Positions 1,547 to 52,000 of a DNA stretch of 64,000 bases are shown piece by piece. Numbering within the stretch: position 1 is the first letter of the stretch; every line of letters begins with the position of its first letter. The notes under the pieces are model-generated. The model was not told the origin of the DNA, did not search any database, and was given only the letters and a program-made list of their open reading frames with translations. A program made the translations under genes and the position numbers. Source of the DNA: a virus (lineage: Duplodnaviria; Caudoviricetes); IMG/VR virus record IMGVR_UViG_3300014205_000177, positions 64,001 to 128,000 of that record; one strand, given 5' to 3'.

Positions 1547-3886
1547 TTATATTGAACTTAACATTTTCATGTCTTTAATTAAAAACGTTCCATCTTTATA
1601 TCTACCAGTAAATAAATATATTTTATTATTATTAAGATTATTTTTTAAAGCATCATATACATCTGGAAAAAGAATAGCATCCATATTTTGTCTTTTATCA
1701 TAAATATCTAAGAAAGCCATAGTTCTTCCATCGTTTTTACTATTTAATTTACTAATAGAATGTAGCTTAATTTCACTAACCATAGCCACTATCTTTAAAT
1801 CACTATCTGATGGGAAAAATCCGTCAATCATATCAAGTATATCTGTATTGGTTTCTTCTTCTATTATTTTTTTGAATGGCTCTGTAGGGTCTGCTGTAAC
1901 ATAATAATTACAAAGGACAAACTCTTCTCCAAGCATTTCTTCAAGAGTTCTTTTTTCTCCACTATATTCAAAATCTCTTTCTTCTTGTGCAATTTCTGAA
2001 ATACTGTATTCAACTCTTAATTTAACCCCAGAGGCTTTTCTTTTTTGTTGGTCTTTATATTTTACTATTTTCTCTTTTACAAATTCATATTTTGCTAATA
2101 AAATATCTCTGTGCTCTCCCATGAAATCAAAAACCCCAACATTAATCATATTCCTCATAACATCAGCACTTAATACCCCCATATCTGAGTTATACAAAAA
2201 TTCAGTAAAACTTTTTAAATATTCTCTATTTTTTATTAATTCTTTTACTGTTGGAGGAGTAACATTTTTTATAAAAGATAGTCCAAATTCTACAGTTTCA
2301 TCATCTCTTATTTCAAAATAAGCACCACTTGTTAAAGCACTAGGAGGAATTAGTTTTACACCAAGTGTTTTAATTTCATTAATATATGTACCTATTTTTT
2401 CTTTTTCATCTTCTCCATTTATTAATTCACACATAAATTCAGTTGGGAAATGAGCCTTAAACCACGCTGCTTGAAAAGCAATTTTACCATAAGCTACGCT
2501 ATGAGATTTATTGAAAGAATATTTCTGGGCTGTTTCAATTTGTGAAAATATTTCTTCTGTAACACTGTCAGGTCTGCCAAGAGACTTTGACTTTTCATAA
2601 AATAGAGTTTTTGCTTCTGCCATTTTTTCAGGAATTTTCTTGCCAATAGCTTTCCTAAGATTATCAGCTTCTGTCATATTAAATCCAGCATAGTCTTTAG
2701 CAATTTGCATTGCAGTTTCCTGATACAATACAGTATTAAGAGTTTCTTTCATTGAATGCTCTAAAGATGGATGTAAATATTCTATCGGAGATTCACCCTT
2801 TTTGCGCTTAATATAAAGTTCAGTTACACCTGCATGAAGAGTACCAGGTCTAATAAGTGCAGTAAGAGCAAATACATCTTCAAAACAATTGACTTTCATA
2901 CTCTTACACATATTTTGAACATATTTACGTTCTAACTGAAACACTCCTGTAGTTTCTCCTCTTGCAAAAAGTGCTAATGTTCTTTTATCATCCATTTTTA
3001 TATCTACTTCTGCATTTATTTTAATTCCACGTCTTTCATATATCCTATCCATAACCCTTTTCATAATATCAAGAGTATTTAGTCCAAGAACATCTACTTT
3101 TAAAAATCCACCATCTTCCATGTCATACATATCCCATTGAGTAATAGATGAGAATTTATCGGTTTTTGGAGATTTAAATAATGGCATATAATCTGTAATT
3201 GGTTTAGGCGTAATTACAATACCAGAAGCATGTACTCCTGTTGATTTTGATTTACCTGCTAAATCTCTAGCTATATTAAATATCTCAGGATATTTTTTAG
3301 CTTCTTCTTGTAATTCAGGAGAATCTGCAATAGCATCTTCAAAATCTATATCAGCAGATGCTGGAAATTTTTTAGCTATTCTATCTGCAACTTTAGCATG
3401 GTCTGGAATCTGTAAAGCCATAGCTATATTTCTAATTATTGCACGAGACCACATTTTACCAAATGTTATAATGTTAGCAACTCTATCGTTCCCATATTTT
3501 TCTTGTAAGTGAGTAATAACTTCGTCTCTTCTATCTTTACTAATGTCCATATCAACATCAGGCATACTTATACGGCTAGGATTAAGAAAACGTTCAAAAT
3601 ACAAACCATATTTAATAGGGTCAATAGTTGTAATTCCTACAGCATAAGCAATTAGCGAACCGCAAGCACTTCCACGACCTGGGCCTACTGGAATATTATT
3701 ATCTCTACAAAAATCAAGAATGTCTGCAATAATAAGAAAATAATCAACAAATCCCATTTTACTGACTACTTCTAACTCAAATTTTGCTCTATCGAAATAT
3801 TCTTTAGTTTCTGGAATATTTTTTTCTTTCCATCCTTTTTTCATTTTCCAACGAAGAAAGTCTAAATTATTGAATTGTCTGGACAT
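1547..3886 (-). CDS. dnaE: DNA polymerase III alpha, catalytic part (palm/thumb/fingers/HhH/OB) lacking the PHP domain
   Basis: GFVDYFLI, VGPGRGSACGS, FERFLNPSRISMPDVDMD, TGVHASG, KVDVLGL, GVFQLE, YSFNKSHS, C-terminal OB (GRTMAFL); begins just after where the PHP domain normally ends. Confidence 0.95.
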   Translation of the reverse strand: MSRQFNNLDFLRWKMKKGWKEKNIPETKEYFDRAKFELEVVSKMGFVDYFLIIADILDFCRDNNIPVGPGRGSACGSLIAYAVGITTIDPIKYGLYFERFLNPSRISMPDVDMDISKDRRDEVITHLQEKYGNDRVANIITFGKMWSRAIIRNIAMALQIPDHAKVADRIAKKFPASADIDFEDAIADSPELQEEAKKYPEIFNIARDLAGKSKSTGVHASGIVITPKPITDYMPLFKSPKTDKFSSITQWDMYDMEDGGFLKVDVLGLNTLDIMKRVMDRIYERRGIKINAEVDIKMDDKRTLALFARGETTGVFQLERKYVQNMCKSMKVNCFEDVFALTALIRPGTLHAGVTELYIKRKKGESPIEYLHPSLEHSMKETLNTVLYQETAMQIAKDYAGFNMTEADNLRKAIGKKIPEKMAEAKTLFYEKSKSLGRPDSVTEEIFSQIETAQKYSFNKSHSVAYGKIAFQAAWFKAHFPTEFMCELINGEDEKEKIGTYINEIKTLGVKLIPPSALTSGAYFEIRDDETVEFGLSFIKNVTPPTVKELIKNREYLKSFTEFLYNSDMGVLSADVMRNMINVGVFDFMGEHRDILLAKYEFVKEKIVKYKDQQKRKASGVKLRVEYSISEIAQEERDFEYSGEKRTLEEMLGEEFVLCNYYVTADPTEPFKKIIEEETNTDILDMIDGFFPSDSDLKIVAMVSEIKLHSISKLNSKNDGRTMAFLDIYDKRQNMDAILFPDVYDALKNNLNNNKIYLFTGRYKDGTFLIKDMKMLSSI

Positions 3887-6267
3887 TTTTTGTCGCCTTC
3901 CATTATTGGTTTTAATTTCATTCTTGAATAATCTACAAGCGGAGTAGAAAGAGGATTTTTAATATCTACATATTTCTTTTTTATGCCACTATTAGGTTTC
4001 CAATAACTTTTAGAAATACTATCCATAATAGCACTAGCTTCTTCAAATGGCATATCTATACATTTAGATACAATACCCATTTTTGCTAAAAAGAAAAGTT
4101 GCTTAGGAGTACACAATCCTTTTTCACGCCTCTTTATAATAGCATCAACTATCCTGTTTGCAAATCCTTTGTTCATTTTTTTATCCATAAAAATTCCAAC
4201 TTTTGTTAGAAACTCTATTTGCTTTTCACTAATAGGTTGAAATTCCCAATGAAATATAGGTTCATAATTTAATAATGAATCATTTTTAGACAAAAATGCA
4301 AATGTTTTAAAATTCTTTAAATTCTTTTTAAATAAATCAACTTGCGCAATTTTTCTAGCCTCTTCCATTTTAGCTTGAAAAAGAATACAATCAATAATAT
4401 AATGTAAGTCAACTAAATTATAACTATTATTACAATTAGAAATGAGAAAATCACGCATTGCATTAGCTACAGCTTCGTTTTCTGCAATTAGTTTAGATGG
4501 ATGAAATATCTCTTTATTTGATTTCCATATTAAATCAAATAATAATAAGTTTTCTTTACCATTCATCAACCTTGTTCCTCTTCCCATTGCTTGTTTATAA
4601 AAATTAAAAGATTGAGTTGGTCTTAAATTTACAATACAATCAACTGATGGCTCATCCCAGCCCTCATTAAGAAGCAAACTACAAGTTAAAACTTTAATTT
4701 TATTATTAGAAAATGCTTCTAGTTTTTCTTTTCTATCCTTATCTTTACCTGAAATATGAGTAACGTTAAAACCACAAGTAGACATTGCTTTTGCAACTTC
4801 TATAGCTCCATCAATTCTAGGTGTAAATACCACTATTTTTCTATTTGGAGTGTGTTTCATTAAATATTTTGATACAGCTGAAAAATAAGGAGAAATAGCA
4901 TCTTCAAGTTCCCCAACTGAAAAATCTCCAGAAGAGTTTTTAACTTTTGAAATATCTACAGATATATTTGCAGTACGTGCTATTATATTAGACAACCAAC
5001 CATCTTTAATGGCATCTGGAAGTTCATATTCAAATGCTTTTATTTCAAATACTTCGCTTAATTTTTTCTGGTCAGCACGGTCTGGAGTTGCTGTAACACC
5101 TAATAATTTAGATTCAGAAAAATGATTAACTATACGCATATATGTATCTGAAACAATATGATGTGCCTCATCAACTATTATTAAATCAAAAAAATCTTTA
5201 GGATACCTATTAAGCCTTTTTTCTATACATAAAGAATCTTTACTTGCAAAAATTAATTGATGATTTAAATCACCAATAGAACTTTCTTTCTCTAAACTAA
5301 AATCAATACCAGAATCAATTTTTAAAAACTTTTCTATTGCTTGATTTATTAATTCTTCTCTATGAGCAATTATTAATACTTTTCCACCATCTTTTATAAT
5401 ATCAGAAGCTATGGAGTTAAATACTATAGTCTTACCACAATTATGAGTAATTATATTACCTTCCATTAAATATCTTCTATCACCACTTACATGAAATCCA
5501 TAACACGTTCCTACTGCTTCTTTTTCTATAGATTTTATAATTCTAAGAAAAGGTTTTTCTCTAAAACCCTTTATTATTAACCCTGCATCGCAAATGACAC
5601 CATGATTTAAAAATACCGAATCGCACAGTCTGCCTAAATCTTTTCTTATATTAACATTCTTTTTTGGAAAAAAACAAGAAGGATTTCCTTTGTTATTTTT
5701 TAAATGAACCATAAAACCTTTGATAAATTCAATTCTATCTTCGAAAGACATTCTAAAATACTCTTCTTTAATATCCATATCTTTTCTTGCTTTTATACCT
5801 AACATATAAGGTTCAAGGAGTTTATTTTTATAAGGATTCCCAACTCTCAAAATAGGAGCCATTATCATTTTTATATGGTTATTTAAAAGATACTTTGAAT
5901 AAAAACTCATATGCCTAATTGGTACATCTTTTATTACGTCTTTATTGTTACTAGTATCAATAATTGAAAATAAATGATTTCCACCAAGAAGAAATTCGTT
6001 TCTATCTCTTGTAGATTTAACTCTATATATATCATCTTCACTTACAATTACTTCTAATACTGTCCTTGGTGTAGAATCTGCCCCCATTAATTGGTCTCCA
6101 GCCTTGATGTCTTCTACTTTAACTAAATGACCAGTATATTTTAAAACTCTTTGTCCTTTTGCATGACATCCCGTTGGTAAAACTAATAAAACTTTTTTAA
6201 ACCCACTTAACCAAGCTTCTTTTATTGATGATATTGCTTCTTTTTGATAAGGTCTCAAATTTATCAT
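3862..6267 (-). CDS. SF2 DEAD/DEAH-box helicase precursor containing an intein
   Basis: LRPYQ Q-motif, LPTG|intein|CGKT Walker A, IVDEAHH, GVTATPDR, LNEGWDEP, QAMGRGTR. Confidence 0.92.
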   Translation of the reverse strand: MINLRPYQKEAISSIKEAWLSGFKKVLLVLPTGCHAKGQRVLKYTGHLVKVEDIKAGDQLMGADSTPRTVLEVIVSEDDIYRVKSTRDRNEFLLGGNHLFSIIDTSNNKDVIKDVPIRHMSFYSKYLLNNHIKMIMAPILRVGNPYKNKLLEPYMLGIKARKDMDIKEEYFRMSFEDRIEFIKGFMVHLKNNKGNPSCFFPKKNVNIRKDLGRLCDSVFLNHGVICDAGLIIKGFREKPFLRIIKSIEKEAVGTCYGFHVSGDRRYLMEGNIITHNCGKTIVFNSIASDIIKDGGKVLIIAHREELINQAIEKFLKIDSGIDFSLEKESSIGDLNHQLIFASKDSLCIEKRLNRYPKDFFDLIIVDEAHHIVSDTYMRIVNHFSESKLLGVTATPDRADQKKLSEVFEIKAFEYELPDAIKDGWLSNIIARTANISVDISKVKNSSGDFSVGELEDAISPYFSAVSKYLMKHTPNRKIVVFTPRIDGAIEVAKAMSTCGFNVTHISGKDKDRKEKLEAFSNNKIKVLTCSLLLNEGWDEPSVDCIVNLRPTQSFNFYKQAMGRGTRLMNGKENLLLFDLIWKSNKEIFHPSKLIAENEAVANAMRDFLISNCNNSYNLVDLHYIIDCILFQAKMEEARKIAQVDLFKKNLKNFKTFAFLSKNDSLLNYEPIFHWEFQPISEKQIEFLTKVGIFMDKKMNKGFANRIVDAIIKRREKGLCTPKQLFFLAKMGIVSKCIDMPFEEASAIMDSISKSYWKPNSGIKKKYVDIKNPLSTPLVDYSRMKLKPIMEGDKKCPDNSII
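5440..6168 (-). mobile_element. Intein (243 aa) in the helicase Walker A motif, with a probably degenerate endonuclease region
   Basis: Starts CHAKGQRV..KVEDIKAGDQLMG, ends YGFHV..RYLMEGNIITHN followed by Cys; removal restores PTG-CGKT. Confidence 0.92.
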
Positions 6268-6827
6268 TTAAAAATCCTTGTTTCTAAAATATTTTTCCCT
6301 ACATTATACTTTAATAATTTTTCCAAAAGAAATAAAGAACTTCTAGCATCACCAAGAGCATCGTGATTACCATATTCTATATTAAAATATTCACACAATG
6401 TTGAAAGTTTCATATCATCAACATCTACTTTTGCTAAAGATGCCATAGTACAGGTATCTATGAATCTAACTGTTCCGAGTGATTTTCCACAAAAATTAAT
6501 TCTCTTATTGATAATAGGGAGGTCACTTTTTCTTATATTATGACCAACAATAATAGCCCCTGAAAAAAAAGATAATATCTTTTCGTGTCTTTCTTCAAAA
6601 CTTTCTTCTCCTAATCTTCTATCATCTGATATTTTATGAGTTTTTAATGCGTAATATGTACTCTTTCCGCCTCCAAACATCCTAGAATATTCATTTATTT
6701 TACCAGATAAAAATTCTACTATTCCAAGTTGTATTATCCTATTATTATCTCCAGATTCACCTGTTGTCTCTATATCAACAGCTATTAATCTCTCAGTGGG
6801 AAATTTTTCAATTATTTGTTTAAACAT
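6264..6827 (-). CDS. DEDDh 3'-5' exonuclease (DnaQ/epsilon-like)
   Basis: ExoI VDIETTG, ExoII GHNIRKSDL, ExoIII HDALGDA. Confidence 0.9.
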   Translation of the reverse strand: MFKQIIEKFPTERLIAVDIETTGESGDNNRIIQLGIVEFLSGKINEYSRMFGGGKSTYYALKTHKISDDRRLGEESFEERHEKILSFFSGAIIVGHNIRKSDLPIINKRINFCGKSLGTVRFIDTCTMASLAKVDVDDMKLSTLCEYFNIEYGNHDALGDARSSLFLLEKLLKYNVGKNILETRIFK

Positions 6828-7315
6828 TTATTAACCTTTCCGCAAGGTTTAAACTCTCCACAAATTCCATTTCTAAATTCACACATTGGACACATTAAAC
6901 ATGCCAACTCTGGGTCAACTTCTGAAATTTTAGACTTTAATTCATCAAAAAACTCACGAGTATAAATCTCGGCTTTAGAACACATTCTTTTATGAGACCA
7001 GTCAATAATATGTTGAGCATTGCACATTATAAAAAAATTACGAGGAGCTAGACGACCATGAACTACAGCAGAACCTATATCAGGTCTACCGCTTTGAACT
7101 AGGAATAATGCTCCATTTTTATCATGAGTTCTCATTTGCATTACTACGCAGTATGGAATATCAGTACAATAGATAGCAAACATTTGGGTTCTGATTGGAG
7201 AATGACCGCTTTTATACCACTTACTCAATGAAGCTTTGGATTTAACTCCGAAAGAATGTTCCATACAACGTTCTAATAATCCTCTGTCTGTTATCTTTTC
7301 TATATTAATTTCCAT
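6812..7315 (-). CDS. Short, divergent ThyX/Thy1-like flavin-dependent thymidylate synthase homologue
   Basis: GHSPIR, Q.RTH...QSGR, KRMCSKA..TR, C-terminal CPMCEFR.G.CGEFKPCG typical of ThyX-like proteins. Confidence 0.65.
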   Translation of the reverse strand: MEINIEKITDRGLLERCMEHSFGVKSKASLSKWYKSGHSPIRTQMFAIYCTDIPYCVVMQMRTHDKNGALFLVQSGRPDIGSAVVHGRLAPRNFFIMCNAQHIIDWSHKRMCSKAEIYTREFFDELKSKISEVDPELACLMCPMCEFRNGICGEFKPCGKVNKCLNK

Positions 7316-7500
7316 TATTTGTTATCCTTAGTTATTTTTTCATATTCTAATTTATTGATATATACATTTATCCTAGATAAATCCTTTAGGCAAACTCCAC
7401 CAGAGCTGTCTTCTCCAAGGTGTTTGCACATGACACCCTCTAAATGCCCCCATTGTTCTCCTCTTTTAAAACATTTTTCCTTGCATCCACACTTCTTCAT
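7315..7500 (-). CDS. Small Cys-rich hypothetical protein
   Basis: 61 aa with 5 Cys; fills the gap and abuts both neighbours; AAAGGA SD. Confidence 0.65.
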   Translation of the reverse strand: MKKCGCKEKCFKRGEQWGHLEGVMCKHLGEDSSGGVCLKDLSRINVYINKLEYEKITKDNK

Positions 7501-7504
7501 TTTA

Positions 7505-9316
7505 TTATCCTTTTAGCTTAAATCCTTCGTTTACATCTTTTATAAAATCATTATAATCTTTTTCTTTTGAGATATCAAAAGCTGGAAACTTATAACCCTC
7601 AAAATTAAGTTTAAATTCTATTCTGTTAGCTATCTCAACTGTCATATCTGCCATTTCTGGAGTTATATAATTCCTAATCATTTGTTCTCTTGTTTTCATA
7701 AATAAACCAGCTGTTTCAAAACCTTCCATTTTACCACCAGTAGCTATTTTTAAAAGAATATTCTGTAACTTATGGTCTCCGTCATTCAAATAATGGCAGT
7801 CATTTGTTACTACACTTTTAACATTATATTTATTAGCTAAAGATATAAATTCAGGAACAATTTTATCATAATCTGGAAAATCAATACACATTACTTCATT
7901 ATAAAACCTGTCTCCAAAATTATCAACAAAAAACTTTATGTTTTCCTCTGCCTTTTTAGGGTCATAGCCTTCTTGGGAAAAATGAAAAGATACTGGACTT
8001 TTATAACATCCAGATAATATTATTAGACCTTCACCATATTTTTGTAAATTTTTTCTATCTGTTCTTGGTTTATAATAAAAACCCTCTCTATTTGCATTAG
8101 TTACAATTTGGCATACGTTTTTCCACCCCGTATCGTTCATTACAAGAATTATTATATGATAATTACTTCTTTGCTCTTTATCTGTAGCATCATCTACATA
8201 ATAAGCTTCTATTCCATGTATTGGCTTAATCCCATTTTTAATACATTCCTTTTGAAACTTATATAAACCAAACATATTGCCATGGTCTGTCAGTGCAAGG
8301 GCTTTAAAACCCATTTCTTTTGCTTTTTTTGCTAATTTATCAACATCAGCTACTCCATCTAACAAACTGTGTGAAGAGTGAACGTGAAGATGAACAAAAC
8401 TATCACTCGGAATAATTATTTTTTCCTCTGTTTTCTTTTCCTGCTTTTTAACCTCAATAACAGCATCTTTCCTAACTTCTTCTTTTTTCGGATATATTTC
8501 TTTAATATTTTTAAGTTTAAAAATAAAACTTCTAGGAAGGTATACATTGGAAGGAACAAATTCTCCACTAAACAAGTTCCCAATTTCCTGAGTAGAATAT
8601 CCAGCAAGTTTACATCCTATTTCACAGACGAGAAATCTATTTTCTGGATGAGAAACAGCATATTTTAAGAAATCTATAATTTCAGACTTGATTTCTTCTA
8701 GGGTTGATGAACGCTCTACAGCCCAATCCTTTTTTGTTACAATAGCATAAGACCTACCCTGTATTCCTCTTGGATTATTCCATTTAGCACCAAAAAACTG
8801 TCTTGCAAATAACGCCGCACCTTTGCCGTGTTTACCGCCAGCATTAGAACCAAAAACAAAAATATCATTATTCTGAGCCAATGAAGCAACTAAAAAATTT
8901 CTAGTTCTATTTTGTATTCCAGGAGAAATACTTTCTCTATTACCTGCAACATTAAGAACTTTTATATTGTTATTAATAAGCCATTCTAAAAACTGATTTT
9001 TTGATTTTACTAGTATATACGGTTTATTATATTTTTCACATACATTAATTGTATATCTAGTTCCAACAGATTTTTCATTAGTTGCAAATATTGCAGTACC
9101 ATCTGATTCTATAACATTTTTTAATGTTCTTTCTTTATAATCACCATCTATCTCTACCAAATTAAATCTATCTCTTAATTCTATACATTGACCATTCTCT
9201 GTTTTAAATTCACTAGGTGCAAAACCACCAACATCTAATCCAAGCAATTCTCCTGCTTCAAGACCTCCTCTGTCACCACCAGATTGACCACCAGAAATAA
9301 TTTTATCAATAATCAT
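7505..9316 (-). CDS. dnaE: Three-domain fusion: SLOG/MoCo-carrier-like (aa 1-~147) + A1S_2505-type macro-like (aa ~151-264) + DnaE PHP domain (aa ~306-603)
   Basis: KIISGGQSGGDRGGLEA...LNVAGNRES; IFVFGSN.GGKHGKGAA...SYAIVTK...IGCKLAGY; FVHLHVHSSHSLLDG, ALTDHGNMFG, KPIHGIEAY, FYYKPR, TNDCHY. Confidence 0.88.
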   Translation of the reverse strand: MIIDKIISGGQSGGDRGGLEAGELLGLDVGGFAPSEFKTENGQCIELRDRFNLVEIDGDYKERTLKNVIESDGTAIFATNEKSVGTRYTINVCEKYNKPYILVKSKNQFLEWLINNNIKVLNVAGNRESISPGIQNRTRNFLVASLAQNNDIFVFGSNAGGKHGKGAALFARQFFGAKWNNPRGIQGRSYAIVTKKDWAVERSSTLEEIKSEIIDFLKYAVSHPENRFLVCEIGCKLAGYSTQEIGNLFSGEFVPSNVYLPRSFIFKLKNIKEIYPKKEEVRKDAVIEVKKQEKKTEEKIIIPSDSFVHLHVHSSHSLLDGVADVDKLAKKAKEMGFKALALTDHGNMFGLYKFQKECIKNGIKPIHGIEAYYVDDATDKEQRSNYHIIILVMNDTGWKNVCQIVTNANREGFYYKPRTDRKNLQKYGEGLIILSGCYKSPVSFHFSQEGYDPKKAEENIKFFVDNFGDRFYNEVMCIDFPDYDKIVPEFISLANKYNVKSVVTNDCHYLNDGDHKLQNILLKIATGGKMEGFETAGLFMKTREQMIRNYITPEMADMTVEIANRIEFKLNFEGYKFPAFDISKEKDYNDFIKDVNEGFKLKG

Positions 9317-9370: not shown

Positions 9371-9754
9371 TTAAGAAGAAATATTTTTATAAGAACATAC
9401 ATGACATCTTAGGTTTAAAACTTTTTCTGTTTGTAAATGTAACATAGTATTTTTTACTGCATCTATTAAATTTGCAGAATCAAGACATTTTTTACATTGC
9501 AAAATACTTTCTTTCCTAATTTCTTTTAATTCTGAAATTGGTATTTTAAACATTTCATCTTCTGGAACATAAGATATACCTGAATTTATAGCATTTTTTA
9601 ATAAATTTTCAGCGTTAACTAAATCTTTTTCATAATCTATAAATAATGTTTCTGAACCTTTATTTTTAGAAGTATTAGCAGATAGAAAAAAGCTACTTCT
9701 AAGAGCCAAAAGTTCTTGACTTATTGCATAAAGAACTTCATATTGAGGAGACAT
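9371..9754 (-). CDS. Hypothetical helical protein with CxxC motifs
   Basis: ORF coupled to the upstream gene; CKKC and CHVC. Confidence 0.7.
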   Translation of the reverse strand: MSPQYEVLYAISQELLALRSSFFLSANTSKNKGSETLFIDYEKDLVNAENLLKNAINSGISYVPEDEMFKIPISELKEIRKESILQCKKCLDSANLIDAVKNTMLHLQTEKVLNLRCHVCSYKNISS

Positions 9755-10316
9755 TTAAAGTATTCCTTTCAAACGGTAAGCGTGTTTCACCTTCAGAAAG
9801 ATTGTATATTTTAAAATCTTTTTCTTCAGAAAGTTTTTTAACCAAGTTTAATTCTCTAATTAACCATTCATCTCCCATTCTTAGTGGGTCTGCTGTACCT
9901 TCCCCATAAAAATGATTAGTATCTTTATTATACATTAAATCACACCCTATAATATAAATGTTAAACATTACACCATGGATATAACATAAATTGATTATAT
10001 GATAAATAGAATTTAATAACATAGTACCTGAACCATCTTCGCATTTATACCAATACGGTTTATTTAAAAAAGAAGTAGTAATTCCTCCCCTAAGACATCT
10101 TAAACTTTGTCTAAAATCATCATGACTTGGAAGAACCTTCCCTGTACAAAAAAAATCGTTAGGAATAAGCCAATAATCTGTTCTTTCTTTAGTTAATGAC
10201 CAAGAATTATTCATTGCACAAACATATATGTTTTTATCAATATTTTTACTATTATTATTCCACCAATCTTTAATGTATGGAGCAGAACCAACTATTAAAA
10301 AATTTTTCATAAACAC
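9738..10316 (-). CDS. Maf/CstII/GT29-like (sialyltransferase-type fold) putative glycosyltransferase
   Basis: LIVGSAP, CAMNNSW..DYW...D, SGTM, IYIIGCD...HFYG pattern. Confidence 0.6.
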   Translation of the reverse strand: MFMKNFLIVGSAPYIKDWWNNNSKNIDKNIYVCAMNNSWSLTKERTDYWLIPNDFFCTGKVLPSHDDFRQSLRCLRGGITTSFLNKPYWYKCEDGSGTMLLNSIYHIINLCYIHGVMFNIYIIGCDLMYNKDTNHFYGEGTADPLRMGDEWLIRELNLVKKLSEEKDFKIYNLSEGETRLPFERNTLNVSSI

Positions 10317-10331
10317 CCCCTTATAATTATA

Positions 10332-10910
10332 TTAAACTGCTTTAGATTCCATTATCACAGTAAAATGTTCTTCTTTTATTTTTTCCCATGATTTTTGTTC
10401 TTCTTCTTTTGAAAGAAATCTAAAATATTTATCAACTGGAACTAATACAGGACCGGCTCCATAGTCAAGATATGACCTTGAACTAAGATATAGAAATTTA
10501 GTCATTTTAGATAAGCTCTTTAAATATTCTTCTAAAACGTCTACTGGTATATGTTGAAAAACTAATGAAGCAACTACTATATCAAACTTTCTTTGTTTTA
10601 AATCATCCCATTGATTAACAGTAAAAAGTTCTAAATTTTTTGTTTCAGAATATCTTTTATCTTTTTTTAATAATTCTATCATATTGGGAAAATCATAACC
10701 TACTACATTGTTTGCTATATTTGTAAGCGCAAAAGTATTTCTACCCATCCCACAACCAAAATCAAGAACATTTTTATGTTCAACAGTAGAAACTAACTTT
10801 AACATTTCGGTTGAAGCAATTAAATCTTCCCGTGTCTTAGCTACACTAATAATTAAGTGTGGAGCAGTTTCTTCGTTAGCTTTTCCCCAATCGTTTTTAT
10901 AAATTCTCAT
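10332..10910 (-). CDS. Class I SAM-dependent methyltransferase
   Basis: VLDFGCGMGR, VVGYD, FDIVVASLVFQHI. Confidence 0.9.
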   Translation of the reverse strand: MRIYKNDWGKANEETAPHLIISVAKTREDLIASTEMLKLVSTVEHKNVLDFGCGMGRNTFALTNIANNVVGYDFPNMIELLKKDKRYSETKNLELFTVNQWDDLKQRKFDIVVASLVFQHIPVDVLEEYLKSLSKMTKFLYLSSRSYLDYGAGPVLVPVDKYFRFLSKEEEQKSWEKIKEEHFTVIMESKAV

Positions 10911-11526
10911 TTTTATTTCCTTTTATTGCTACAAAAAATATTGCATTTCCTCTTGAAAACATTACCATTTCAGTATGCGTAAGTTTATATCCTATGCCAT
11001 TAAATAGTTCTTCTAAGTCTTTAACTTCAAACTCCCTATAGTGCCACTTGTCAACATGCTGTGCTGACTTTTCAGGAACAGTGCCAATGATAAGACGAGG
11101 GTTTAATAATTTAATATTCTGCATTACAACTTCAGGATTAGGAAAGTGCTCAAGTATTTCACAGGCAACTACAACAGTTTTAGTATTATATATGTTTGGC
11201 TCAAAGCAGTCTTCTTTTCCTATGTCTACAATAAAAAATCCTATATCTGATACACGATTATCTTGTGCAAACTCTATTGTTTCTATGGAATCATCTATTC
11301 CAACTACAGCACAACCGCAAAGTTCATATAGTAATTCACTTCCAAATCCAGAACCGCATCCAATATCATAAACTCTATCATCTTTATTTATATACTTAGC
11401 CGCCATCCTATAACGTGTAGATGGTAATCCTAAGAATTCATCCTTTTTTATAATTCTTTCACCCGAAGTGAATGACTTACTTCTATTTCTATTTTCTTCG
11501 TTCATTTTCCTCCTAACATATCTCAT
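10897..11526 (-). CDS. Class I SAM-dependent methyltransferase
   Basis: RY..A, VYDIGCGSGFG, VVGIDDS, ACEILEH, GTVP, WHYREF. Confidence 0.9.
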   Translation of the reverse strand: MRYVRRKMNEENRNRSKSFTSGERIIKKDEFLGLPSTRYRMAAKYINKDDRVYDIGCGSGFGSELLYELCGCAVVGIDDSIETIEFAQDNRVSDIGFFIVDIGKEDCFEPNIYNTKTVVVACEILEHFPNPEVVMQNIKLLNPRLIIGTVPEKSAQHVDKWHYREFEVKDLEELFNGIGYKLTHTEMVMFSRGNAIFFVAIKGNKNENL

Positions 11527-12628
11527 TTATTATTTTTGTCATTTTTTCACATGCTATTTTCCAAGTCCATTTATTAATCATGTCTCTTCTTGCATTAATT
11601 CCTTTCATGTTCTTATCTGACCTATTATTATAAACAAATCTCATAGTTTCAATTAAATGGTCTTTATCTATCTCTGCCCAATTTTGACCAGCATAATGAG
11701 GAAATTTAGCACATTGTTCATCTGAAACTGGAACTATTTTACAATCCACTAAGTACCCATTATCTTTATTTATAAATTCAGTATGTGAACTCCAGTTTGT
11801 TGCTATACATGGTACTCCACACCCCATGCTTTCACTAAAACATAGCCCCCATCCTTCTCCTCTTGTAGGAGAAACATAACAGTCTATACTGTTATAAAAT
11901 CCAGCCATATCATCGGCATTAATCATTTGCGGCATCAACATTATTTCTGAATCTTTATTTCCAACAAAATTACGTATTTCTTTTATTTTTTCTTTAACTG
12001 TTTCTGTAAATTTATTTGAATATTCATAATGAGCATATATTTTTAACAATAAAGAAACATCTTTTCTACCTTTAAAAGCCCTAAGATAACATTCAATTAA
12101 AGCATTTGGATTTTTTCTTGGAGTCCAATCAAAATTAGAACCAAAAACAAATTTATTTGGTATTTTTTTTATTAATGGTTTTTTTTCAGGGCTAAACCTA
12201 TCAGTGTCAACTCCGTGAGGAATTACAAAAATAGGGTTTCTTATTCCTGAATTATAAAACGTATTTTTATTAAATTCACTATATGTAAAAACATAATCCA
12301 TAGCCCTTATTGGCATTACCCATGATTTTGGGATGCCATCTGTTTCAAAAGTTGTCATACAAGAATGGAAGCTCTTACCTTTATTAATTATTTGATAATT
12401 TTCTGGTGTTACATTAAAAATTACAATATCAAAATCTTCACTATCCTTATTCATTAATGGATTCAATTTATTAAAAAATTCTTTACCTAAACCAACAGTA
12501 CCACCCTTATAAAATTTTAAAGATTTTAATTGTAGATTAACACCATTCATATTATATACATAATTTCTTGATGCTTCACCATATCCGCTTGGGTCGTGAA
12601 AAGACCCTACCCATAATACGTTTTTCAT
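11513..12628 (-). CDS. GT-B glycosyltransferase (family 4-like)
   Basis: SGYGEASR, IPHGVD, RKN, YVSPTRGEGWGL..SESMGCGVPCIAT. Confidence 0.92.
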   Translation of the reverse strand: MKNVLWVGSFHDPSGYGEASRNYVYNMNGVNLQLKSLKFYKGGTVGLGKEFFNKLNPLMNKDSEDFDIVIFNVTPENYQIINKGKSFHSCMTTFETDGIPKSWVMPIRAMDYVFTYSEFNKNTFYNSGIRNPIFVIPHGVDTDRFSPEKKPLIKKIPNKFVFGSNFDWTPRKNPNALIECYLRAFKGRKDVSLLLKIYAHYEYSNKFTETVKEKIKEIRNFVGNKDSEIMLMPQMINADDMAGFYNSIDCYVSPTRGEGWGLCFSESMGCGVPCIATNWSSHTEFINKDNGYLVDCKIVPVSDEQCAKFPHYAGQNWAEIDKDHLIETMRFVYNNRSDKNMKGINARRDMINKWTWKIACEKMTKIINEIC

Positions 12629-13989
12629 GCTTTCACCAATTCAATCTTTTCTTCATTTTTGTTTTTATTAATCATACGAGATATTAAAACATCCCACTGT
12701 GGGATAATTTTATCCCAAGAATATTTTTCTATTTGCATTCTACCGGCAATACTTAACATTTTTCTTGCTTTATCACCTGTTATTTCTGGCTTTTTAGATT
12801 CTGGATAAGCTTGTTTTAAATAACTACCCCATTTTTCATAAAATACACTATTATCATTATAATATAATTTATCTAATCTCATAGCATAATCATAAACATC
12901 AACAATGGCTCTTTCTATATTAGAATTTGTTTCTGTAAAATAATCTGAAACACTAATTAATTCTGAACATGGAGCACAAAAGTCAATATGACCTGAATAA
13001 TTAGTGACAACGGTAGGAGTTCCACAAGCCATAGCTTCTGCAATAGGGAGACCAAATCCTTCTCCAGTTGTTGGGAGTGTAAATATATCGAACAGGTTAT
13101 AGAGTTCGCACAATGTTTCTGAAGTTACACCTGCACCTACGTTCATTTTTGGTGGAATTATTACATTACCGAATAACTTGTAAGTATTTATTAGTTCTGG
13201 TATATTCCAACCAAAGTCTTCTCCTCCAGGAGTATGAAGGTAAAGGCGAGCTTCTTTTTTACCATCACGAACTTCAATTTTTTCGCTACCACAAAATTCA
13301 CATTTTTTTTCAGAAAATGACATTTCTCCACATTCACAACAAATACAATAAGGTCTACAAAACAAAGAAAAAGCTTGCATTAATTTAGGGATATTTTTTC
13401 TTGGTTGATTTCTACATACAGTCCCGATTACAAACAAATCTTTAGACTTGTATTTTATACGTAGTGATTCTTTATTACAAATAGGTTTAAATATATCTAT
13501 ATCAACACCATGTGGTATTGCAACTATTTTATTAAGATTTATCCCTAATTTTATAATTTCATTAAACCCAAAATTACCATATGCAACAACCATATCAATG
13601 TTTTCAAGTAAATTTTTCCATCTTATTGAAAATGGAACACCATCAACAGGGACATACGATATTAATTTATAACTATTTCTATAAGGGCTCTTTATCATTG
13701 ACTCTATCATCCATATATCTCCAACTGTCAATACTATTTCTGGCTTATAAACAGATACAACTTCATTAAACGTTATACCAGAATACATATCATCTTTAGT
13801 TGCTTTTGTAGATATAATTTCATAAGGAACCATTTCTTGGTTTTTTTGTCCATGCCAATTAAACCACCCTATTGTCTTTATTTCATACTTTTCCATATTA
13901 AAAAGACCAATAGCCATTTCTTTAACAACTCTTCCGAATCCTGTATGAATCAAACTTGAATCACCTACAATTAATATTTTTGGTTTCAT
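12625..13989 (-). CDS. GT-B glycosyltransferase (family 4-like) with a Zn-ribbon insertion
   Basis: TGFGRV, IPHGVD, RNQPRKN, LPTTGEGFGLPIAEAMACG; insert CCECG...CEFCGS. Confidence 0.92.
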   Translation of the reverse strand: MKPKILIVGDSSLIHTGFGRVVKEMAIGLFNMEKYEIKTIGWFNWHGQKNQEMVPYEIISTKATKDDMYSGITFNEVVSVYKPEIVLTVGDIWMIESMIKSPYRNSYKLISYVPVDGVPFSIRWKNLLENIDMVVAYGNFGFNEIIKLGINLNKIVAIPHGVDIDIFKPICNKESLRIKYKSKDLFVIGTVCRNQPRKNIPKLMQAFSLFCRPYCICCECGEMSFSEKKCEFCGSEKIEVRDGKKEARLYLHTPGGEDFGWNIPELINTYKLFGNVIIPPKMNVGAGVTSETLCELYNLFDIFTLPTTGEGFGLPIAEAMACGTPTVVTNYSGHIDFCAPCSELISVSDYFTETNSNIERAIVDVYDYAMRLDKLYYNDNSVFYEKWGSYLKQAYPESKKPEITGDKARKMLSIAGRMQIEKYSWDKIIPQWDVLISRMINKNKNEEKIELVKA

Positions 13990-49031: not shown

Positions 49032-52000
49032 TTATTTATTCATATTATATTTGGCACTATCTACCTTTACTCCTGCCATTGCATTTCCAGCTCCTTGTTC
49101 TATTATCTTAGAAATTTGGGGCATTAACATTTCAACTATTAATTTAGCCAATGGACTTCCAAATGATTCAGTAAATGCATCTTGCAATCCAGATGCATCA
49201 ACACTTACAGAACCTGAAACTTCACTTTTTGTATTAGTTGAACTATTCTGTTCTTTGAACTTGTCAGCAGACTCTTTCATTGATTCTTCTTCTGTATCAA
49301 ACTTATTTCTATTATAATCGTAAGAGTACATTTTTGTATTACCGTACATTTTCTCATGACTCCCATCTGAAAAACCTGGGTCAATATCCCTATATTCTTC
49401 TTTTCCATTTATAATAGCATCTATTAATTCATCTCTTGATTGTTCCTTAGAGGTATATTTTGTTATTGCTTTTTCTTTTATTTTCTTATCATAAGCTTTT
49501 TCATCCCATCTTTTTTCTACAACTGATAGCTCATCTTGACCAAACATATTTTTTTCATAAACTAATTCTTCTCCAAGATATATTCCAGATGGTCTTTTTT
49601 TAGAATGTTTATTTTCTTTTTTATCTTTTACTTTATCTTTTACTAATTCTTTATTAGACATTATTCTTAAATAATCTGTATTTTTATACTTATTGTCACT
49701 ATTAATAGATGGTGTTAATTTATCATTATTGTTTTTTTCATCAACTTTATATTTTATTTTTTGTAATTCAGTCAATTTTGTTTTATTGTCTATACCAGAT
49801 TTAAAAGATTCAGGAGTTAATTCTTTAACTTTATCTTCATCATCTTTCATCTTTCTGTGTTTTTCCATTAATTTAGAATATTCTTCACTAGTTACCTTTC
49901 TAGATAACTCAGATGGATTATTATATGACTCTTCTGATGGCTCAGTTCCATCATCAATTATTGAATTAAAATAATCTCTATATGATTTTTTGCTGGTACT
50001 TGCATCTTTTTCAAGTCCTGCTTTTTTATCATTAAACTTTTTATCTAATTGATTGTTGTATTCAGAATTAACATTTTTATCTGAAAGAAGTGTTTCAATT
50101 TGTTTATTATCATTTTCTATTCCGGTTCTTTTTGCCAAATCAATAGCTTTTTTAATTGCAAAATTTGCTTTATTAGGTGCTATTTCATCTTTTTTCTCAT
50201 CACTCCATAAATGAGATATTGCAGCTATTGGAGAAATTACTCGAAGTGCTAGTGAAGCCTTATTGTTTTTAGATTCATATTCTCTTTTTAAAGATTCACG
50301 TTTTGCTTCAAGTATTCTTTCACGAAAAATTCTAAATATATTACTTCTTTCCTCAAGTGTTTTCCCTTTTCCTTTATACATTGATGATTCTTGCAATATT
50401 GAAGCTTGGGTATCTTGAGGCAATTCTTCTGTTGCTCCCATGGATTTAGCTAAATCCATTACCTTGGCAATAGAATTTTTATCTATTTCTCTTTCTCTTC
50501 TCTTGTTTTCTCCATCATAATGAATTAAAGAATCTCTTTTAGATGGGTCATTTGTAGTATTTTTATGGGTTTTAACCATATTATAGATATTGTTTTGTTC
50601 TTCTTTCTTTTCTATTTGATTGGCTTTTGAACCAAGTCTTTTTGAAACATAACCACCAGTTAAATATTTATCTGCTTGAGATATTGCCGTCGCAGACCTA
50701 TCTAAAATTTCTGATACAATTCCACCACCCTTTAGCATACCTGATTTATTAATATATCTTGATATTCCATTATTTCTGGAATTATATTCCCAATCTGTAA
50801 GTCCTACTGATTTTTTATAATTCTCATTTTCTTTTTGTGAAAAACCATCAATGTCATGTTTTTTACTACGAAAATATCCTTCAGAACCAAGCATATCTTG
50901 GGTTGCATTGATTCCACCACTCATAATAGCCATTGAAGGGTCTAATCCAAGAAACGCCAAATGAGAAGCCATCCCAACTGCATCTCCAATATCTTCTCTT
51001 CCTGTGATTCTTTCAGCTGCATATGATGTTAATGGAGCAGTCATAGATAAACCCATTCCAATAAGAGAACCCTTTGGATTCATAGCTCCTATTTTATTTA
51101 TCCCTCTTGCAAGCTTCATTGGTGATTTCATCCATGATGGACTTTTCTCAATAGCCTTAGAAATATATGGAGTAGCTAATTTAGTAATACCTGTTTTGTC
51201 CCCTGCATATGAAGCAAGTTTTCCGCCCCATCCTCTAATTTTACTATTAAATGCTAAAAGTGGTAATGATTCAACTGCTGTATCACCCAAAGCCATTGGT
51301 ATATCTTTGTAATTATTAGTTTTAGCAAAATTGTTATATGCACTGCTTCCTGCGTACATTATAGAAGCTGCTGCTGTAGCAATTGAAGATTTAGGAGATT
51401 TAGAAAGAGCCTCATACAAGAAAGAACCAGAAACGGCAGATTTGCCAATTCCGCTAATTATAGATTTACTATCTCCTTTTTTGAAATCCTCAGCAGCATC
51501 CTTTCCATAATAATAAGCTGCCATTCCTGAAATGAACGAACTACCTGTTTTTTGGAAATTATCTCCAAACGATGGCTTAACTGCTGGTTCAAATGGAATT
51601 CCTTTGTTAGACATTCTTTCTCTTGCTATTCTACGAGAACGTTCTCCTGAAGTTTCAACCCTTACAGGTTCTTCAATTTTTTCTTTAGGTTTACGTCTAT
51701 TTCTTATTTTTCTTGATTCTTCATCAAGTTTTCTTTTACGTGACACTGGTGTTGGTGGCTCTTGTCTTATTTCAATTTCATCTGCATAATCTTTTAATGT
51801 TTTACTAACTTTAGGAAGTTTTTCACCTATTAATTCACCACCTTCTTTAAAAGTAAAGTTTTCCCCAATAATTTTTGCTAGTGGACCATATCCATTTTTA
51901 CCACCCATAATATCTGAAATAGTTTTTATTCTTGCATGTGGACTATTACCAGAAGATTCTAAGGCGTAATCAATTGATTTATATATGTTTTTATGTAATT

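What the first reader, a model, noticed from the sequence alone, without database searches (positions are those of the whole stretch)
7505..9316. SLOG + macro-like + DnaE-PHP fusion: candidate replisome-tethered ADP-ribose/nucleotide-lesion handling module
Seen: one uninterrupted 603-aa ORF. It has an N-terminal MoCo-carrier/SLOG-type domain (about 8876-9316), a second domain with FGSN.GGKHGKGAA and IGCKLAG motifs (about 8525-8866), a ~40-aa charged linker without a Met, then a complete DnaE PHP domain (7505-8401). Established: SLOG domains bind or process nucleotides and co-occur with macro/NADAR domains in NAD-linked conflict systems; DarT toxins block phage replication by ADP-ribosylating ssDNA, and the DarG macrodomain reverses this. 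Inference: the two Gly-rich motifs of the A1S_2505-type domain resemble the macro-fold N..G..G.G.A and IGCG.G loops, so the polymerase subunit may carry its own de-ADP-ribosylation or nucleotide-sensing tools to the fork. I know of no described DnaE with this architecture.
Basis: partly seen in the sequence, partly recalled or inferred. Interest (0 to 1): 0.9.

Follow-up and report, generated by a model that had tools for sequence, protein, structure and literature searches.

The report
ADP-ribose eraser fused to phage polymerase
A large phage makes its DNA polymerase III in two pieces, and the proofreading (PHP) piece carries a nucleotide-binding SLOG domain and a DarG/TARG1-like macrodomain, so the replicase may remove host-inflicted ADP-ribose marks, an arrangement I found described nowhere.

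Summary
ORF 7505-9316 (-) encodes 603 aa: a cpYpsA SLOG domain (aa 6-144), an A1S_2505 domain (aa 152-264), a 40-aa charged linker, and the N-terminal PHP segment of DnaE (aa 305-603).

The guess that the middle domain is macro-like holds. Its AF2 model has pLDDT 91.6. The best solved matches are TARG1 and the DarG macrodomains (Z 11-12), and all top-50 matches are macrodomains or designs on that scaffold. Family-invariant N158 and conserved K195 align with the N23/K78 active-site pair of PhiKZ AdfM, a proven DNA de-ADP-ribosylase.

The fusion is real. Ten other protein clusters (47-68% identity, independent samples) share it.

One addition: the ORF is not a whole polymerase. DnaE is split cleanly, with no intein, at model position 306/307. 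The rest is a separate gene, 1547-3886. The replicon is a circular phage genome of about 177.7 kb.

Best reading (about 0.45): an ADP-ribose-processing counter-defence cassette tethered to the replicase, most plausibly clearing DarT-type DNA adducts. The main rival is degradation of soluble ADP-ribose signals. Function is untested.

Other first readers of this scan flagged this same stretch. I rate it a new variant of known kinds, interest about 0.65.

The parts
7505..9316 (-). Whole ORF: 603 aa plus stop. SLOG, macro, linker and DnaE N-terminal (PHP) subunit.
8885..9301 (-). cpYpsA-type SLOG domain (aa 6-144). The GGQxGxD and NRES motifs are conserved in all fused relatives.
   Evidence: Pfam PF12694 E 3e-33; PDB 3imk E 6e-15; conservation
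8525..8863 (-). A1S_2505 domain (aa 152-264), a compact DarG/TARG1/AdfM-like macrodomain. Candidate catalytic residues are N158 and K195.
   Evidence: NF049995 E 4e-35; AF2 pLDDT 91.6; Foldseek and VIA hits; hhalign to PhiKZ AdfM; conservation
8405..8524 (-). 40-aa charged linker without Met (aa 265-304). In relatives it varies in length and sequence, and some carry an extra domain of ~130-170 aa here.
7508..8404 (-). DnaE N-terminal segment (aa 305-603; PHP Pfam aa 309-476 = 7889-8392). It has the complete 'active' PHP metal-site signature HHDHEHCDH.
   Evidence: signature as defined in PMC12926913
1547..3886 (-). DnaE C-terminal subunit, 779 aa: catalytic NTPase (palm) domain, fingers, HhH, OB. 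It covers NF004226 positions 306-1047.
6264..6827 (-). DnaQ/epsilon-like DEDD 3'-5' exonuclease, encoded between the two DnaE pieces.
3862..6267 (-). SNF2/ResIII helicase carrying a Hint (intein) insertion, between the two DnaE pieces.
   Evidence: relatives are 551-553 aa with no Hint/intein family on record
6812..7500 (-). Two small ORFs (61 aa at 7315-7500; 167 aa at 6812-7315) directly downstream of the fused gene. No family was found. Small ORFs (56 aa; 67 and 117 aa) occupy the same place in relatives.

Best explanation
The gene encodes the PHP (proofreading-type) subunit of a naturally split phage DNA polymerase III alpha. An ADP-ribose-processing counter-defence cassette has been fused to its N-terminus.

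The cassette has two domains: a cpYpsA SLOG domain, which binds or cleaves nucleotides or ADP-ribose, and a compact macrodomain of the DarG/TARG1/AdfM type with the Asn/Lys pair intact. A ~40-aa flexible charged linker joins it to the PHP domain. There is no internal start, so every replicase molecule carries the cassette.

Proposed mechanism:
1. The PHP segment docks non-covalently on the separately encoded polymerase core (1547-3886), as PHP packs on the polymerase core in unsplit DnaE.
2. The tethered macrodomain hydrolyses ADP-ribose adducts. The most plausible substrate is DarT2-type ADP-ribosyl-thymidine on the single-stranded template, which would stall this polymerase.
3. The SLOG domain binds or further cleaves the released ADP-ribose or a related ADPr-derived signal.

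Shown here: domain identities, the fold, residue conservation, recurrence of the fusion, and the split of DnaE.
Inferred: assembly of the two DnaE pieces, enzymatic activity, the substrate, and any benefit from tethering.
For: Fold:
- The AF2 model of aa 140-275 has pLDDT 91.6.
- Best Foldseek PDB hits are TARG1 (E 7e-4, prob 1.0) and the DarG macrodomains.
- VIA-align gives Z 12.2 for TARG1, 11.3 for M. tuberculosis DarG and 11.2 for T. aquaticus DarG. Each aligns 115-120 residues at 2.4-2.7 A. All top-50 rows are macrodomains or designs on that scaffold.

Active site:
- hhalign of the family profile against PhiKZ gp104/AdfM gives prob 71%, E 3.8e-5. It aligns N158 with N23 and K195 with K78.
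- N23/K78 are the putative active-site residues of AdfM, equivalent to DarG2 N22/K80. AdfM removes DarT2 ADP-ribose from DNA (PMC13309987).
- The HMM alignment to TARG1 puts T194-K195 on TARG1's ITK and IGC.LAG on IGCGLD.
- N158 is invariant (52/52) and K195 is present in 43/52 family members. Both are present in the fused relatives, except that T194/K195 fall in an alignment gap in P0011.

Context of the family:
- In 53 mid-length proteins the A1S_2505 domain is fused to cpYpsA (6), NADAR (4), DUF4326 (4), YpsA (2), YAcAr (1), UDG (1) and DUF1643 (1). This is the ADPr-processing network described for phages in PMC9503650.
- NADAR is the DarG1-type and AdfN-type DNA de-ADP-ribosylase.
- The domain also sits in giant crAss-like proteins, one of them labelled ART-PolyVal-like.

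Fusion under selection:
- All 10 relatives with SLOG plus macro (47-68% identity) have them fused to the PHP piece, joined by variable linkers.
- The PHP signature HHDHEHCDH is invariant.

Polymerase as the relevant target:
- DarT blocks phage replication, and one phage has been shown to escape DarTG2 through DNA-polymerase mutations.
- AdfM must be localised where phage DNA replicates.

Ecology: DarT occurs in 9 of 166 genomes of the family to which the binned host belongs.
Against: - A macro fold with Asn/Lys does not fix the substrate: TARG1-type enzymes also act on protein-Glu-ADPr and on O-acetyl-ADP-ribose (from established knowledge of that family).
- The TARG1 Asp125 position is Ala238 in this family.
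- The domain is ~35 residues shorter than DarG or AdfM. Pfam Macro does not detect it, and T4 Tk.4/AdfM shows no profile similarity.
- Elsewhere the same domain is mostly stand-alone or sits in giant phage proteins that are probably virion-delivered. Its partners (SLOG, DUF4326, NADAR) were interpreted by Iyer et al. 2022 as acting mainly on soluble ADPr derivatives, so tethering to a polymerase is not needed for its general role.
- No DarT was found in the MAG (93% complete) or in its three same-genus genomes. The phage-host link rests only on binning.
- Assembly of the two DnaE pieces was not tested.
Confidence: 0.45

Rival explanations
1. The cassette degrades or sequesters soluble signals. 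The SLOG-macro pair destroys or sponges diffusible ADP-ribose-derived immune signals or toxins, such as Thoeris-type cyclic ADPR isomers or ADPr-1''-phosphate. Fusion to the PHP subunit would then give only early, stoichiometric co-expression and would have no role at the fork.
For: The partner-domain tally of the A1S_2505 family (cpYpsA, YpsA, NADAR, DUF4326) matches the viral network that Iyer et al. 2022 assign mainly to low-molecular-weight ADPr derivatives. According to that paper, YpsA-like clade SLOG domains include cADPR sensors in prokaryotic immune systems. In 39 IMG/VR phage loci, cpYpsA sits in ORFs with no macro or PHP match within the ~8-kb flanks fetched; most are 160-310 aa, a few are longer. 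The macro domain is mostly stand-alone or in giant crAss-like proteins.
Against: The nearest solved and characterised relatives, DarG and AdfM, act on DNA adducts. The fusion to the PHP piece is kept in all 11 clusters despite ~50% divergence and highly variable linkers, which is unexpected for a neutral fusion. NADAR and UDG-type partners are also DNA-adduct or DNA-base enzymes.
Confidence: 0.27
2. The cassette is a sensor that regulates the replicase. The SLOG domain, with or without the macro domain, binds NAD+/ADPr-derived molecules made during host immune activation. It then switches PHP exonuclease or polymerase activity allosterically, for example by pausing replication or altering proofreading. 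This would be another case of the 'SLOG sensor-activated systems' proposed for phage HNH, 3'-5' exonuclease and helicase fusions.
For: Iyer et al. 2022 describe sporadic phage fusions of SLOG to HTH, HNH, 3'-5' exonuclease, SF1 helicase and guanylate kinase, and propose sensing. The PHP domain here carries the full active exonuclease signature, so there is a catalytic activity to regulate.
Against: A long, charged linker that varies in sequence and length, and in seven relatives (P0003-P0009) carries an inserted extra domain, is poorly suited to allosteric coupling. The macrodomain keeps its candidate catalytic residues, which suggests an enzyme more than a sensor.
Confidence: 0.1
3. The cassette serves phage DNA or nucleotide modification. 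Together with the adjacent glycosyltransferase/methyltransferase genes (9738-13989), the SLOG and macro domains process a modified nucleotide or a DNA-linked sugar-phosphate intermediate during or after synthesis.
For: The gene lies directly downstream of two GT4 glycosyltransferases and two SAM methyltransferases in the same strand block. LOG-clade SLOG enzymes cleave nucleotide N-glycosidic bonds.
Against: The two features are independent in relatives. L004 and L005 have the SLOG-macro-PHP fusion and no GT cassette. The P0014 relative has a GT cassette upstream of a PHP-only subunit.
Confidence: 0.05
4. The fusion is an artefact: three genes joined by an assembly or frameshift error, or a one-off decaying fusion.
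For: None found.
Against: The same architecture occurs in 10 other 90%-identity clusters from independent ENA and Logan samples, on contigs up to 170 kb. All functional motifs are conserved.
Confidence: 0.01

Closest known systems
AdfM (PhiKZ gp104 and other chimallivirus macrodomain proteins; T4 Tk.4), phage anti-DarTG2 factors
   Same: A phage-encoded macrodomain of the DarG type. The Asn/Lys active-site pair aligns (N158/K195 with N23/K78). It works where phage DNA is replicated.
   Different: AdfM is a stand-alone ~155-162-aa protein detected by Pfam Macro. The domain here is a compact ~115-aa A1S_2505-family version that Pfam Macro does not see. It is fused to a SLOG domain and to a polymerase subunit. 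T4 Tk.4 shows no profile similarity to it. Its activity is untested.
DarG antitoxin macrodomain (T. aquaticus, M. tuberculosis) and human TARG1/OARD1
   Same: These are the best structural matches (Z 11-12). The ITK and IGCG motifs are shared.
   Different: There is no DarT-binding C-terminal domain and no adjacent DarT (that search is unvalidated because its controls did not ring). The TARG1 Asp125 position is Ala. Identity is only 12-18%.
Viral SLOG-Macro-NADAR-DUF4326 ADPr-processing proteins and 'SLOG sensor' fusions (Iyer, Burroughs, Anantharaman, Aravind 2022, PMC9503650)
   Same: The same domain vocabulary. The A1S_2505 domain shows the same partners, and cpYpsA belongs to the YpsA-like SLOG clade common in large phages.
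   Different: That survey lists SLOG fusions to HTH, HNH, 3'-5' exonuclease, SF1 helicase and guanylate kinase. A search of its main text found no 'polymerase III' or 'replisome', and 'DNA polymerase' only in the reference list.
Cyanobacterial split-intein DnaE and phage 'fractured genes' (PMC2677866)
   Same: A replicative polymerase is encoded in two separated genes. The phage is rich in inteins: the helicase here carries a Hint domain, and an unchecked first-reader note reports a split NrdJ upstream.
   Different: There is no intein at the junction. The two pieces abut at DnaE model positions 307 and 306 with no Hint or intein hit. The split lies at the PHP/palm boundary, and the pieces must associate non-covalently.
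E. coli Pol III alpha-epsilon: the proofreader tethered to the PHP domain (PMC3664792)
   Same: An auxiliary DNA-editing activity is held at the replicase through the PHP domain by a flexible tether.
   Different: In E. coli the tether is a non-covalent epsilon C-terminal peptide and the activity is mismatch excision. Here the tether is covalent and the activity is predicted ADP-ribose removal.

Membership tests
Macrodomain superfamily (DarG/TARG1/AdfM-like clade) | Three-layer alpha/beta/alpha macro fold | tested here: met
   AF2 pLDDT 91.6. All top-50 PDB matches are macrodomains or designs on that scaffold, with Z up to 12.2. BFVD hits are phage macro proteins.
Macrodomain superfamily (DarG/TARG1/AdfM-like clade) | Catalytic Lys (TARG1 K84, DarG2 K80, AdfM K78) and loop-1 Asn (DarG2 N22, AdfM N23) | tested here: met
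   K195 and N158 align to these residues. N158 is present in 52/52 and K195 in 43/52 family members. Both are present in 10 of the 11 fused proteins (query included); in P0011 T194/K195 fall in an alignment gap.
Macrodomain superfamily (DarG/TARG1/AdfM-like clade) | TARG1 second catalytic residue Asp125 | tested here: not met
   The aligned position is Ala238, conserved in 49/52. I did not check whether DarG has this Asp.
Macrodomain superfamily (DarG/TARG1/AdfM-like clade) | Match to Pfam Macro (PF01661) at sequence level | tested here: not met
   No Macro hit even at E <= 1, whereas PhiKZ gp104 hits at 4.9e-7. Sequence relatedness is seen only by profile-profile comparison.
Macrodomain superfamily (DarG/TARG1/AdfM-like clade) | ADP-ribose binding and hydrolysis of ADPr from ssDNA | not testable with these tools
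   Needs biochemistry.
DarTG toxin-antitoxin system | Adjacent DarT toxin and a DarT-binding domain on the antitoxin | tested here: inconclusive
   PF14487 has no match in the phage or the MAG. The control genomes did not ring in that search, but the same model found DarT in 9 of 166 family genomes. No extra DarG C-terminal domain is present in the ORF.
NCBIfam NF049995, A1S_2505 family N-terminal domain | Score above the curated cut-off | tested here: met
   120.4 bits against a cut-off of 45, full model length 1-109.
cpYpsA SLOG family (PF12694) | Score above the gathering threshold; Gly-rich loop after strand 1 and the later NRES-type motif | tested here: met
   115 bits against 26.2. PDB 3imk E 6e-15. 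GGQxGxD and NRES are conserved in all fused relatives.
DNA polymerase III alpha (DnaE) | PHP domain with the metal-site signature HHDHEH[C/H]DH | tested here: met
   H311, H313, D320, H345, E370, H387, C437, D506 and H508 are invariant. The signature is as defined in PMC12926913.
DNA polymerase III alpha (DnaE) | Single polypeptide with palm, thumb, fingers and HhH | tested here: not met
   This ORF covers only model positions 4-307. The rest is gene 1547-3886. Cellular DnaEs in the binned-host family are mostly unsplit, with open frames of ~1150-1200 aa; shorter ones lie in fragmented assemblies.
Split-intein DnaE (cyanobacterial type) | IntN at the end of the N piece and IntC at the start of the C piece | tested here: not met
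   No Hint or intein Pfam hit in either piece. The HMM coordinates abut (307 and 306), leaving no room for intein halves.

The most novel reading that the evidence does not exclude
This would be a 'self-cleaning' replicase. The phage Pol III alpha carries, on a leash attached to its detached PHP subunit, a DNA de-ADP-ribosylase plus a SLOG partner that erases DarT-type template lesions exactly where they would stall synthesis. That would be the first replicative polymerase with a built-in anti-immunity lesion-reversal activity. Being tethered would make it more effective than a free AdfM-type enzyme.
Probability: 0.35. Interest if true: 0.85.

Novelty: new variant of a known kind. Interest (0 to 1): 0.66.

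Why it matters
DarTG and other ADP-ribose-based systems are widespread anti-phage defences. Free-standing phage erasers have only just been found: AdfN in 2025 and AdfM in 2026.

A replicase subunit that carries such an eraser would show a new strategy, in which the counter-defence is built into the machine that the defence targets. The idea is easy to test. The domains are small and soluble-looking, and DarT-modified oligonucleotides and DarTG plasmids already exist.

The work also assigns a fold and a likely chemistry to the large, uncharacterised A1S_2505 family. That family has about 4,000 representatives at 50% identity, appears in 431 deposited phage records, and occurs in giant crAss-like proteins.

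Finally, it documents an intein-less DnaE split at the PHP/palm boundary. This bears on how PHP and the polymerase core cooperate.

Tried and rejected
- IMG/VR scan with the single N-terminal 300 aa: no relatives.
- IMG/VR scan with alignment A4: 39 phage cpYpsA loci, none with a macro or PHP match in the ~8-kb flanks fetched. The fused clade is absent from IMG/VR by this route.
- Genome-contig scan: only one ordinary DnaE, in a Planctomycetota MAG.
- tblastn of the whole protein against 50,697 phage records: no record covers 80% or more of the query. Only the PHP half matches, at 36% identity or less.
- Pfam Macro against the middle domain: no hit.
- Family profile against PDB sequences: TARG1 at E 0.3 only, not significant alone.
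- hhalign against T4 Tk.4/AdfM: no similarity.
- The extra ~130-170-aa domain inserted after the macro domain in P0003-P0009: folded at pLDDT 78.5, but no PDB match at E <= 0.001. The weak top rows were yippee/Mis18-type domains and DUF427.
- ESM Atlas look-up of the unknown 250-aa N-terminal extension of the PHP-only relative P0012: nothing usable.
- DarT and NADAR in the MAG: none found. The genome is 93% complete, and the DarT search had no positive control genome.
- The fused gene in 165 genomes of the binned-host family: only the cellular DnaE PHP region matches.
- Literature searches for cpYpsA, A1S_2505, and split phage DnaE or PHP: nothing describes this architecture.
- Complex prediction was not run. 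The two halves of DnaE would probably pass by likeness to solved DnaE structures, which would hardly change my odds.
Full report
**1. The observation**

The window holds one uninterrupted ORF at 7505..9316 on the minus strand, 603 aa. A GGGG run lies 8 nt upstream of the ATG, and the homologues' N-termini align with it.

- Pfam cpYpsA ('circularly permuted YpsA SLOG'), aa 6-144, E 3e-33. It also matches PDB 3imk, 'putative molybdenum carrier protein', E 6e-15.
- NCBIfam NF049995 'A1S_2505 family phage non-structural protein, N-terminal domain', aa 152-264, 120 bits against a cut-off of 45. It also matches phrog_2072, of unknown function.
- Pfam PHP, aa 309-476, E 6.5e-47, with DnaE models matched over aa 305-600.

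The linker, aa 265-304, has 12 K/R and 8 D/E and no Met.

**2.

DnaE model NF004226 is matched by this ORF only at positions 4-307. Positions 306-1047 are matched by a separate 779-aa gene at 1547..3886, which has the PF07733 catalytic domain, fingers, HhH and OB.

The two matches abut and neither piece has a Hint or intein hit. This is therefore an intein-less split at the PHP/palm boundary. Four genes lie between the pieces:
- two small unknown ORFs (61 and 167 aa);
- a DnaQ-like DEDD exonuclease (6264-6827);
- an SNF2 helicase with a Hint insertion (3862-6267).

The PHP piece carries the full 'active' metal-site signature HHDHEHCDH: H311, H313, D320, H345, E370, H387, C437, D506, H508. These residues are invariant in relatives. 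The signature is as defined in PMC12926913.

**3. The replicon**

The window is bases 64001-128000 of contig C2 of a 4.04-Mb MAG. C2 is 177,804 bp with an exact 123-bp terminal overlap, so it is a circular genome of about 177.7 kb. Its GC content is 30.4% against 33.3% for the bin.

It encodes RecA, DnaB, primase and SSB, and a 4,985-aa protein with a tape-measure domain. It is a large tailed phage. No deposited phage record matches more than the PHP half, and that at 36% identity or less.

**4. The fusion is real and recurrent**

A search of 5.8 billion proteins found ten further 90%-identity clusters (P0002-P0011, 599-749 aa, 47-68% identity). They come from independent ENA and Logan samples, on contigs up to 170 kb. 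All have cpYpsA, then the A1S_2505 domain, then the PHP piece.

All end at the same point, and in the loci examined the rest of DnaE is again a separate downstream gene. The linker varies, and seven relatives carry an extra domain of ~130-170 aa there. That domain folds (pLDDT 78.5) but has no clear PDB match.

More distant relatives have the same split PHP subunit without SLOG or macro (P0012, P0014, P0016). In the P0014 contig no SLOG or macro family is recorded on any neighbouring gene (Pfam has no A1S_2505 model, so absence of the macro domain is not shown).

Within the MAG plus phage, the SLOG and A1S_2505 domains occur only in this gene. In 165 genomes of the binned-host family only the ordinary cellular DnaE matches; where assemblies allow, its open frame is ~1150-1200 aa.

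**5. The middle domain is a macrodomain**

The domain family is large. It has 4,043 representatives at 50% identity with E <= 1e-3. Members are stand-alone proteins of 120-200 aa, multidomain proteins, or parts of giant proteins of 2,000-5,800 aa.

- With a 52-sequence alignment, AlphaFold2 gave pLDDT 91.6 and pTM 0.85.
- Foldseek against the PDB ranks human TARG1/C6orf130 first (E 7e-4, prob 1.0), followed by the M. tuberculosis and T. aquaticus DarG macrodomains.
- VIA-align gives Z 12.2 for TARG1, 11.3 for 5m3i and 11.2 for 5m3e. Each aligns 115-120 residues at 2.4-2.7 A. All 50 top entries are macrodomains or designs built on one.
- BFVD gives family members inside giant crAss-like proteins (cr50_1 'DNA helicase', cr116_1 'ART-PolyVal-like'). 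Annotated phage macro proteins follow, including a tk.4 homologue.
- A few deposited phage genomes already label homologues 'macro domain-containing protein' or 'O-acetyl-ADP-ribose deacetylase 1'.

So the fold assignment is not wholly new, but the family is uncharacterised. Pfam Macro does not detect it.

**6. Active-site residues**

Family-invariant positions are S157, N158, G161, H163, G166, A168, G184, Y190, G234 and N257. K195 is present in 43 of 52 members.

The profile-to-PDB alignment is not significant alone (E 0.3). It places YAIvTK on TARG1's YYLITK and IGCGLAG on IGCGLD. From my own knowledge of TARG1, those are the K84 and D125 positions.

hhalign of the family profile against PhiKZ gp104 gives probability 71% and E 3.8e-5 over 101 columns. 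It aligns N158 with N23 and K195 with K78. PhiKZ gp104 is AdfM. It removes DarT2-made ADP-ribose from DNA, and N23/K78 are its putative active-site residues, equivalent to N22/K80 of T. aquaticus DarG2 (PMC13309987).

The TARG1 Asp125 position is Ala in this family. T4 Tk.4, the other reported AdfM (PMC13716836), shows no profile similarity. The A1S_2505 domain is therefore a distinct, compact branch, nearest to the DarG/TARG1/AdfM group. All these residues, and the SLOG motifs GGQxGxD and NRES, are conserved in the fused relatives; in P0011 T194/K195 fall in an alignment gap.

**7. Context of the family**

Among 53 mid-length A1S_2505 proteins the co-occurring Pfam families are:
- cpYpsA: 6
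- NADAR: 4
- DUF4326: 4
- YpsA: 2
- YAcAr: 1
- UDG: 1
- DUF1643: 1
- DSPc: 1

One of them (P0127) reads DUF4326, then A1S_2505, then cpYpsA.

This is the domain network that Iyer et al. 2022 (PMC9503650) describe for phage Macro domains. They interpret it mainly as countering soluble ADP-ribose derivatives. They also note sporadic SLOG fusions to HTH, HNH, 3'-5' exonuclease, SF1 helicase and guanylate kinase, which they read as sensor-regulated enzymes. A search of their main text found no 'polymerase III' or 'replisome', and 'DNA polymerase' only in the reference list.

NADAR is also the DNA de-ADP-ribosylase of DarG1 and of phage AdfN. Macro-NADAR fusions could therefore equally be dual anti-DarT tools.

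**8. Mechanism and rivals**

Best reading (0.45). This is an ADP-ribose-processing counter-defence cassette held on the replicase by a flexible leash. The macrodomain would remove ADP-ribose adducts, most plausibly DarT-type adducts on the single-stranded template. The SLOG domain would bind or further cleave the released ADP-ribose.

Support for this reading:
- The nearest characterised relatives act on DNA adducts.
- DarT acts by blocking replication, and one phage has been shown to escape DarTG2 through DNA-polymerase mutations.
- AdfM must sit where phage DNA replicates.
- The fusion persists across about 50% sequence divergence despite free variation of the linker.
- No internal start exists, so every PHP subunit carries the cassette.
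- DarT is present in 9 of 166 genomes of the binned-host family, though not in this MAG or its genus.

Rivals:
1. Soluble-signal degradation or sponging, with the fusion incidental (0.27). It is supported by the partner-domain pattern and by the mostly stand-alone or giant-protein occurrence of both domains.
2. SLOG-sensor regulation of the PHP or polymerase activity (0.10).
3. A role in DNA modification with the neighbouring glycosyltransferase/methyltransferase cassette (0.05). This is weakened because the cassette and the fusion occur independently in relatives.
4. Artefact (0.01), refuted by recurrence.

Assembly of the two DnaE pieces, catalysis, substrate and the benefit of tethering are all inferred and were not shown here.

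**9. Novelty and verdict**

Each element is known separately:
- phage macrodomain anti-DarT factors (2026);
- viral SLOG-Macro fusions (2022);
- split and fractured phage genes (PMC2677866, listed).

I did not find their combination, covalently attached to a replicative polymerase subunit that is itself a detached PHP domain, in the literature I could search or in deposited phage genomes. I class it as a new variant of known kinds with a sharply testable hypothesis, interest about 0.66. Other first readers of this scan flagged this same stretch, and separately the split DnaE. I verified both here.

Noticed in passing
window 1547-3886 and 7505-9316: DnaE is split without an intein at model position 306/307, the PHP/palm boundary. 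The split is conserved across the phage clade. It is also flagged separately in this scan.
   Followed up: yes
L004:11623-15084; L005:5992-8661: In relatives the C-terminal DnaE part is split again, into a 139-141-aa piece (start of PF07733) and a 745-aa piece. In L004 a 275-aa ORF of no known family lies between them, possibly a mobile endonuclease. That makes a three-piece polymerase.
   Followed up: no
window 3862-6267: The SNF2/ResIII helicase (801 aa) carries a Hom_end-associated Hint (intein) insertion near its N-terminus. Orthologues in relatives are 551-553 aa with no Hint/intein family on record.
   Followed up: partly
P0013 (985 aa), P0015 (869 aa): Other relatives of the PHP subunit carry intein domains (Intein_splicing with Hint_2, or with PF13392) inside the PHP piece. 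The replication genes of this phage group are hot spots for mobile elements.
   Followed up: no
P0003-P0009, about aa 268-430 (e.g. L004:8055-8543): An extra conserved domain of ~130-170 aa is inserted between the macrodomain and the PHP piece in seven relatives. It folds with pLDDT 78.5 and has no significant PDB match. Function unknown.
   Followed up: partly
G000 contig C2 (window = C2:64001-128000): The contig is 177,804 bp with an exact 123-bp terminal overlap and GC 30.4% against 33.3% for the bin. It is a complete circular phage genome binned with a bacterial MAG, so the host assignment rests on binning alone.
   Followed up: partly
window 49032-63989: A giant ORF of at least 4,985 aa contains a TP901-type tape-measure domain at aa 2172-2504. 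It has no A1S_2505 domain, unlike the giant crAss-like proteins that carry one.
   Followed up: partly
window 9738-13989: A cassette of two GT4 glycosyltransferases and two SAM methyltransferases lies directly upstream in the same strand block. In relatives it occurs independently of the SLOG-macro fusion.
   Followed up: partly
G000:C10:2660-3433: There is a third PF07733 (DnaE catalytic domain) match in the MAG, in an open frame of only 617 aa. This is besides the 1155-aa cellular DnaE on C51. I did not examine it; it could be another split or truncated polymerase.
   Followed up: no
MT774375.1 (crAss-like phage cr50_1) 65825-80149: A 4,774-aa protein annotated 'DNA helicase' contains an A1S_2505 macro-like domain. 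Many proteins of 2,000-5,800 aa in the metagenomic library carry the domain, often near the C-terminus.
   Followed up: partly
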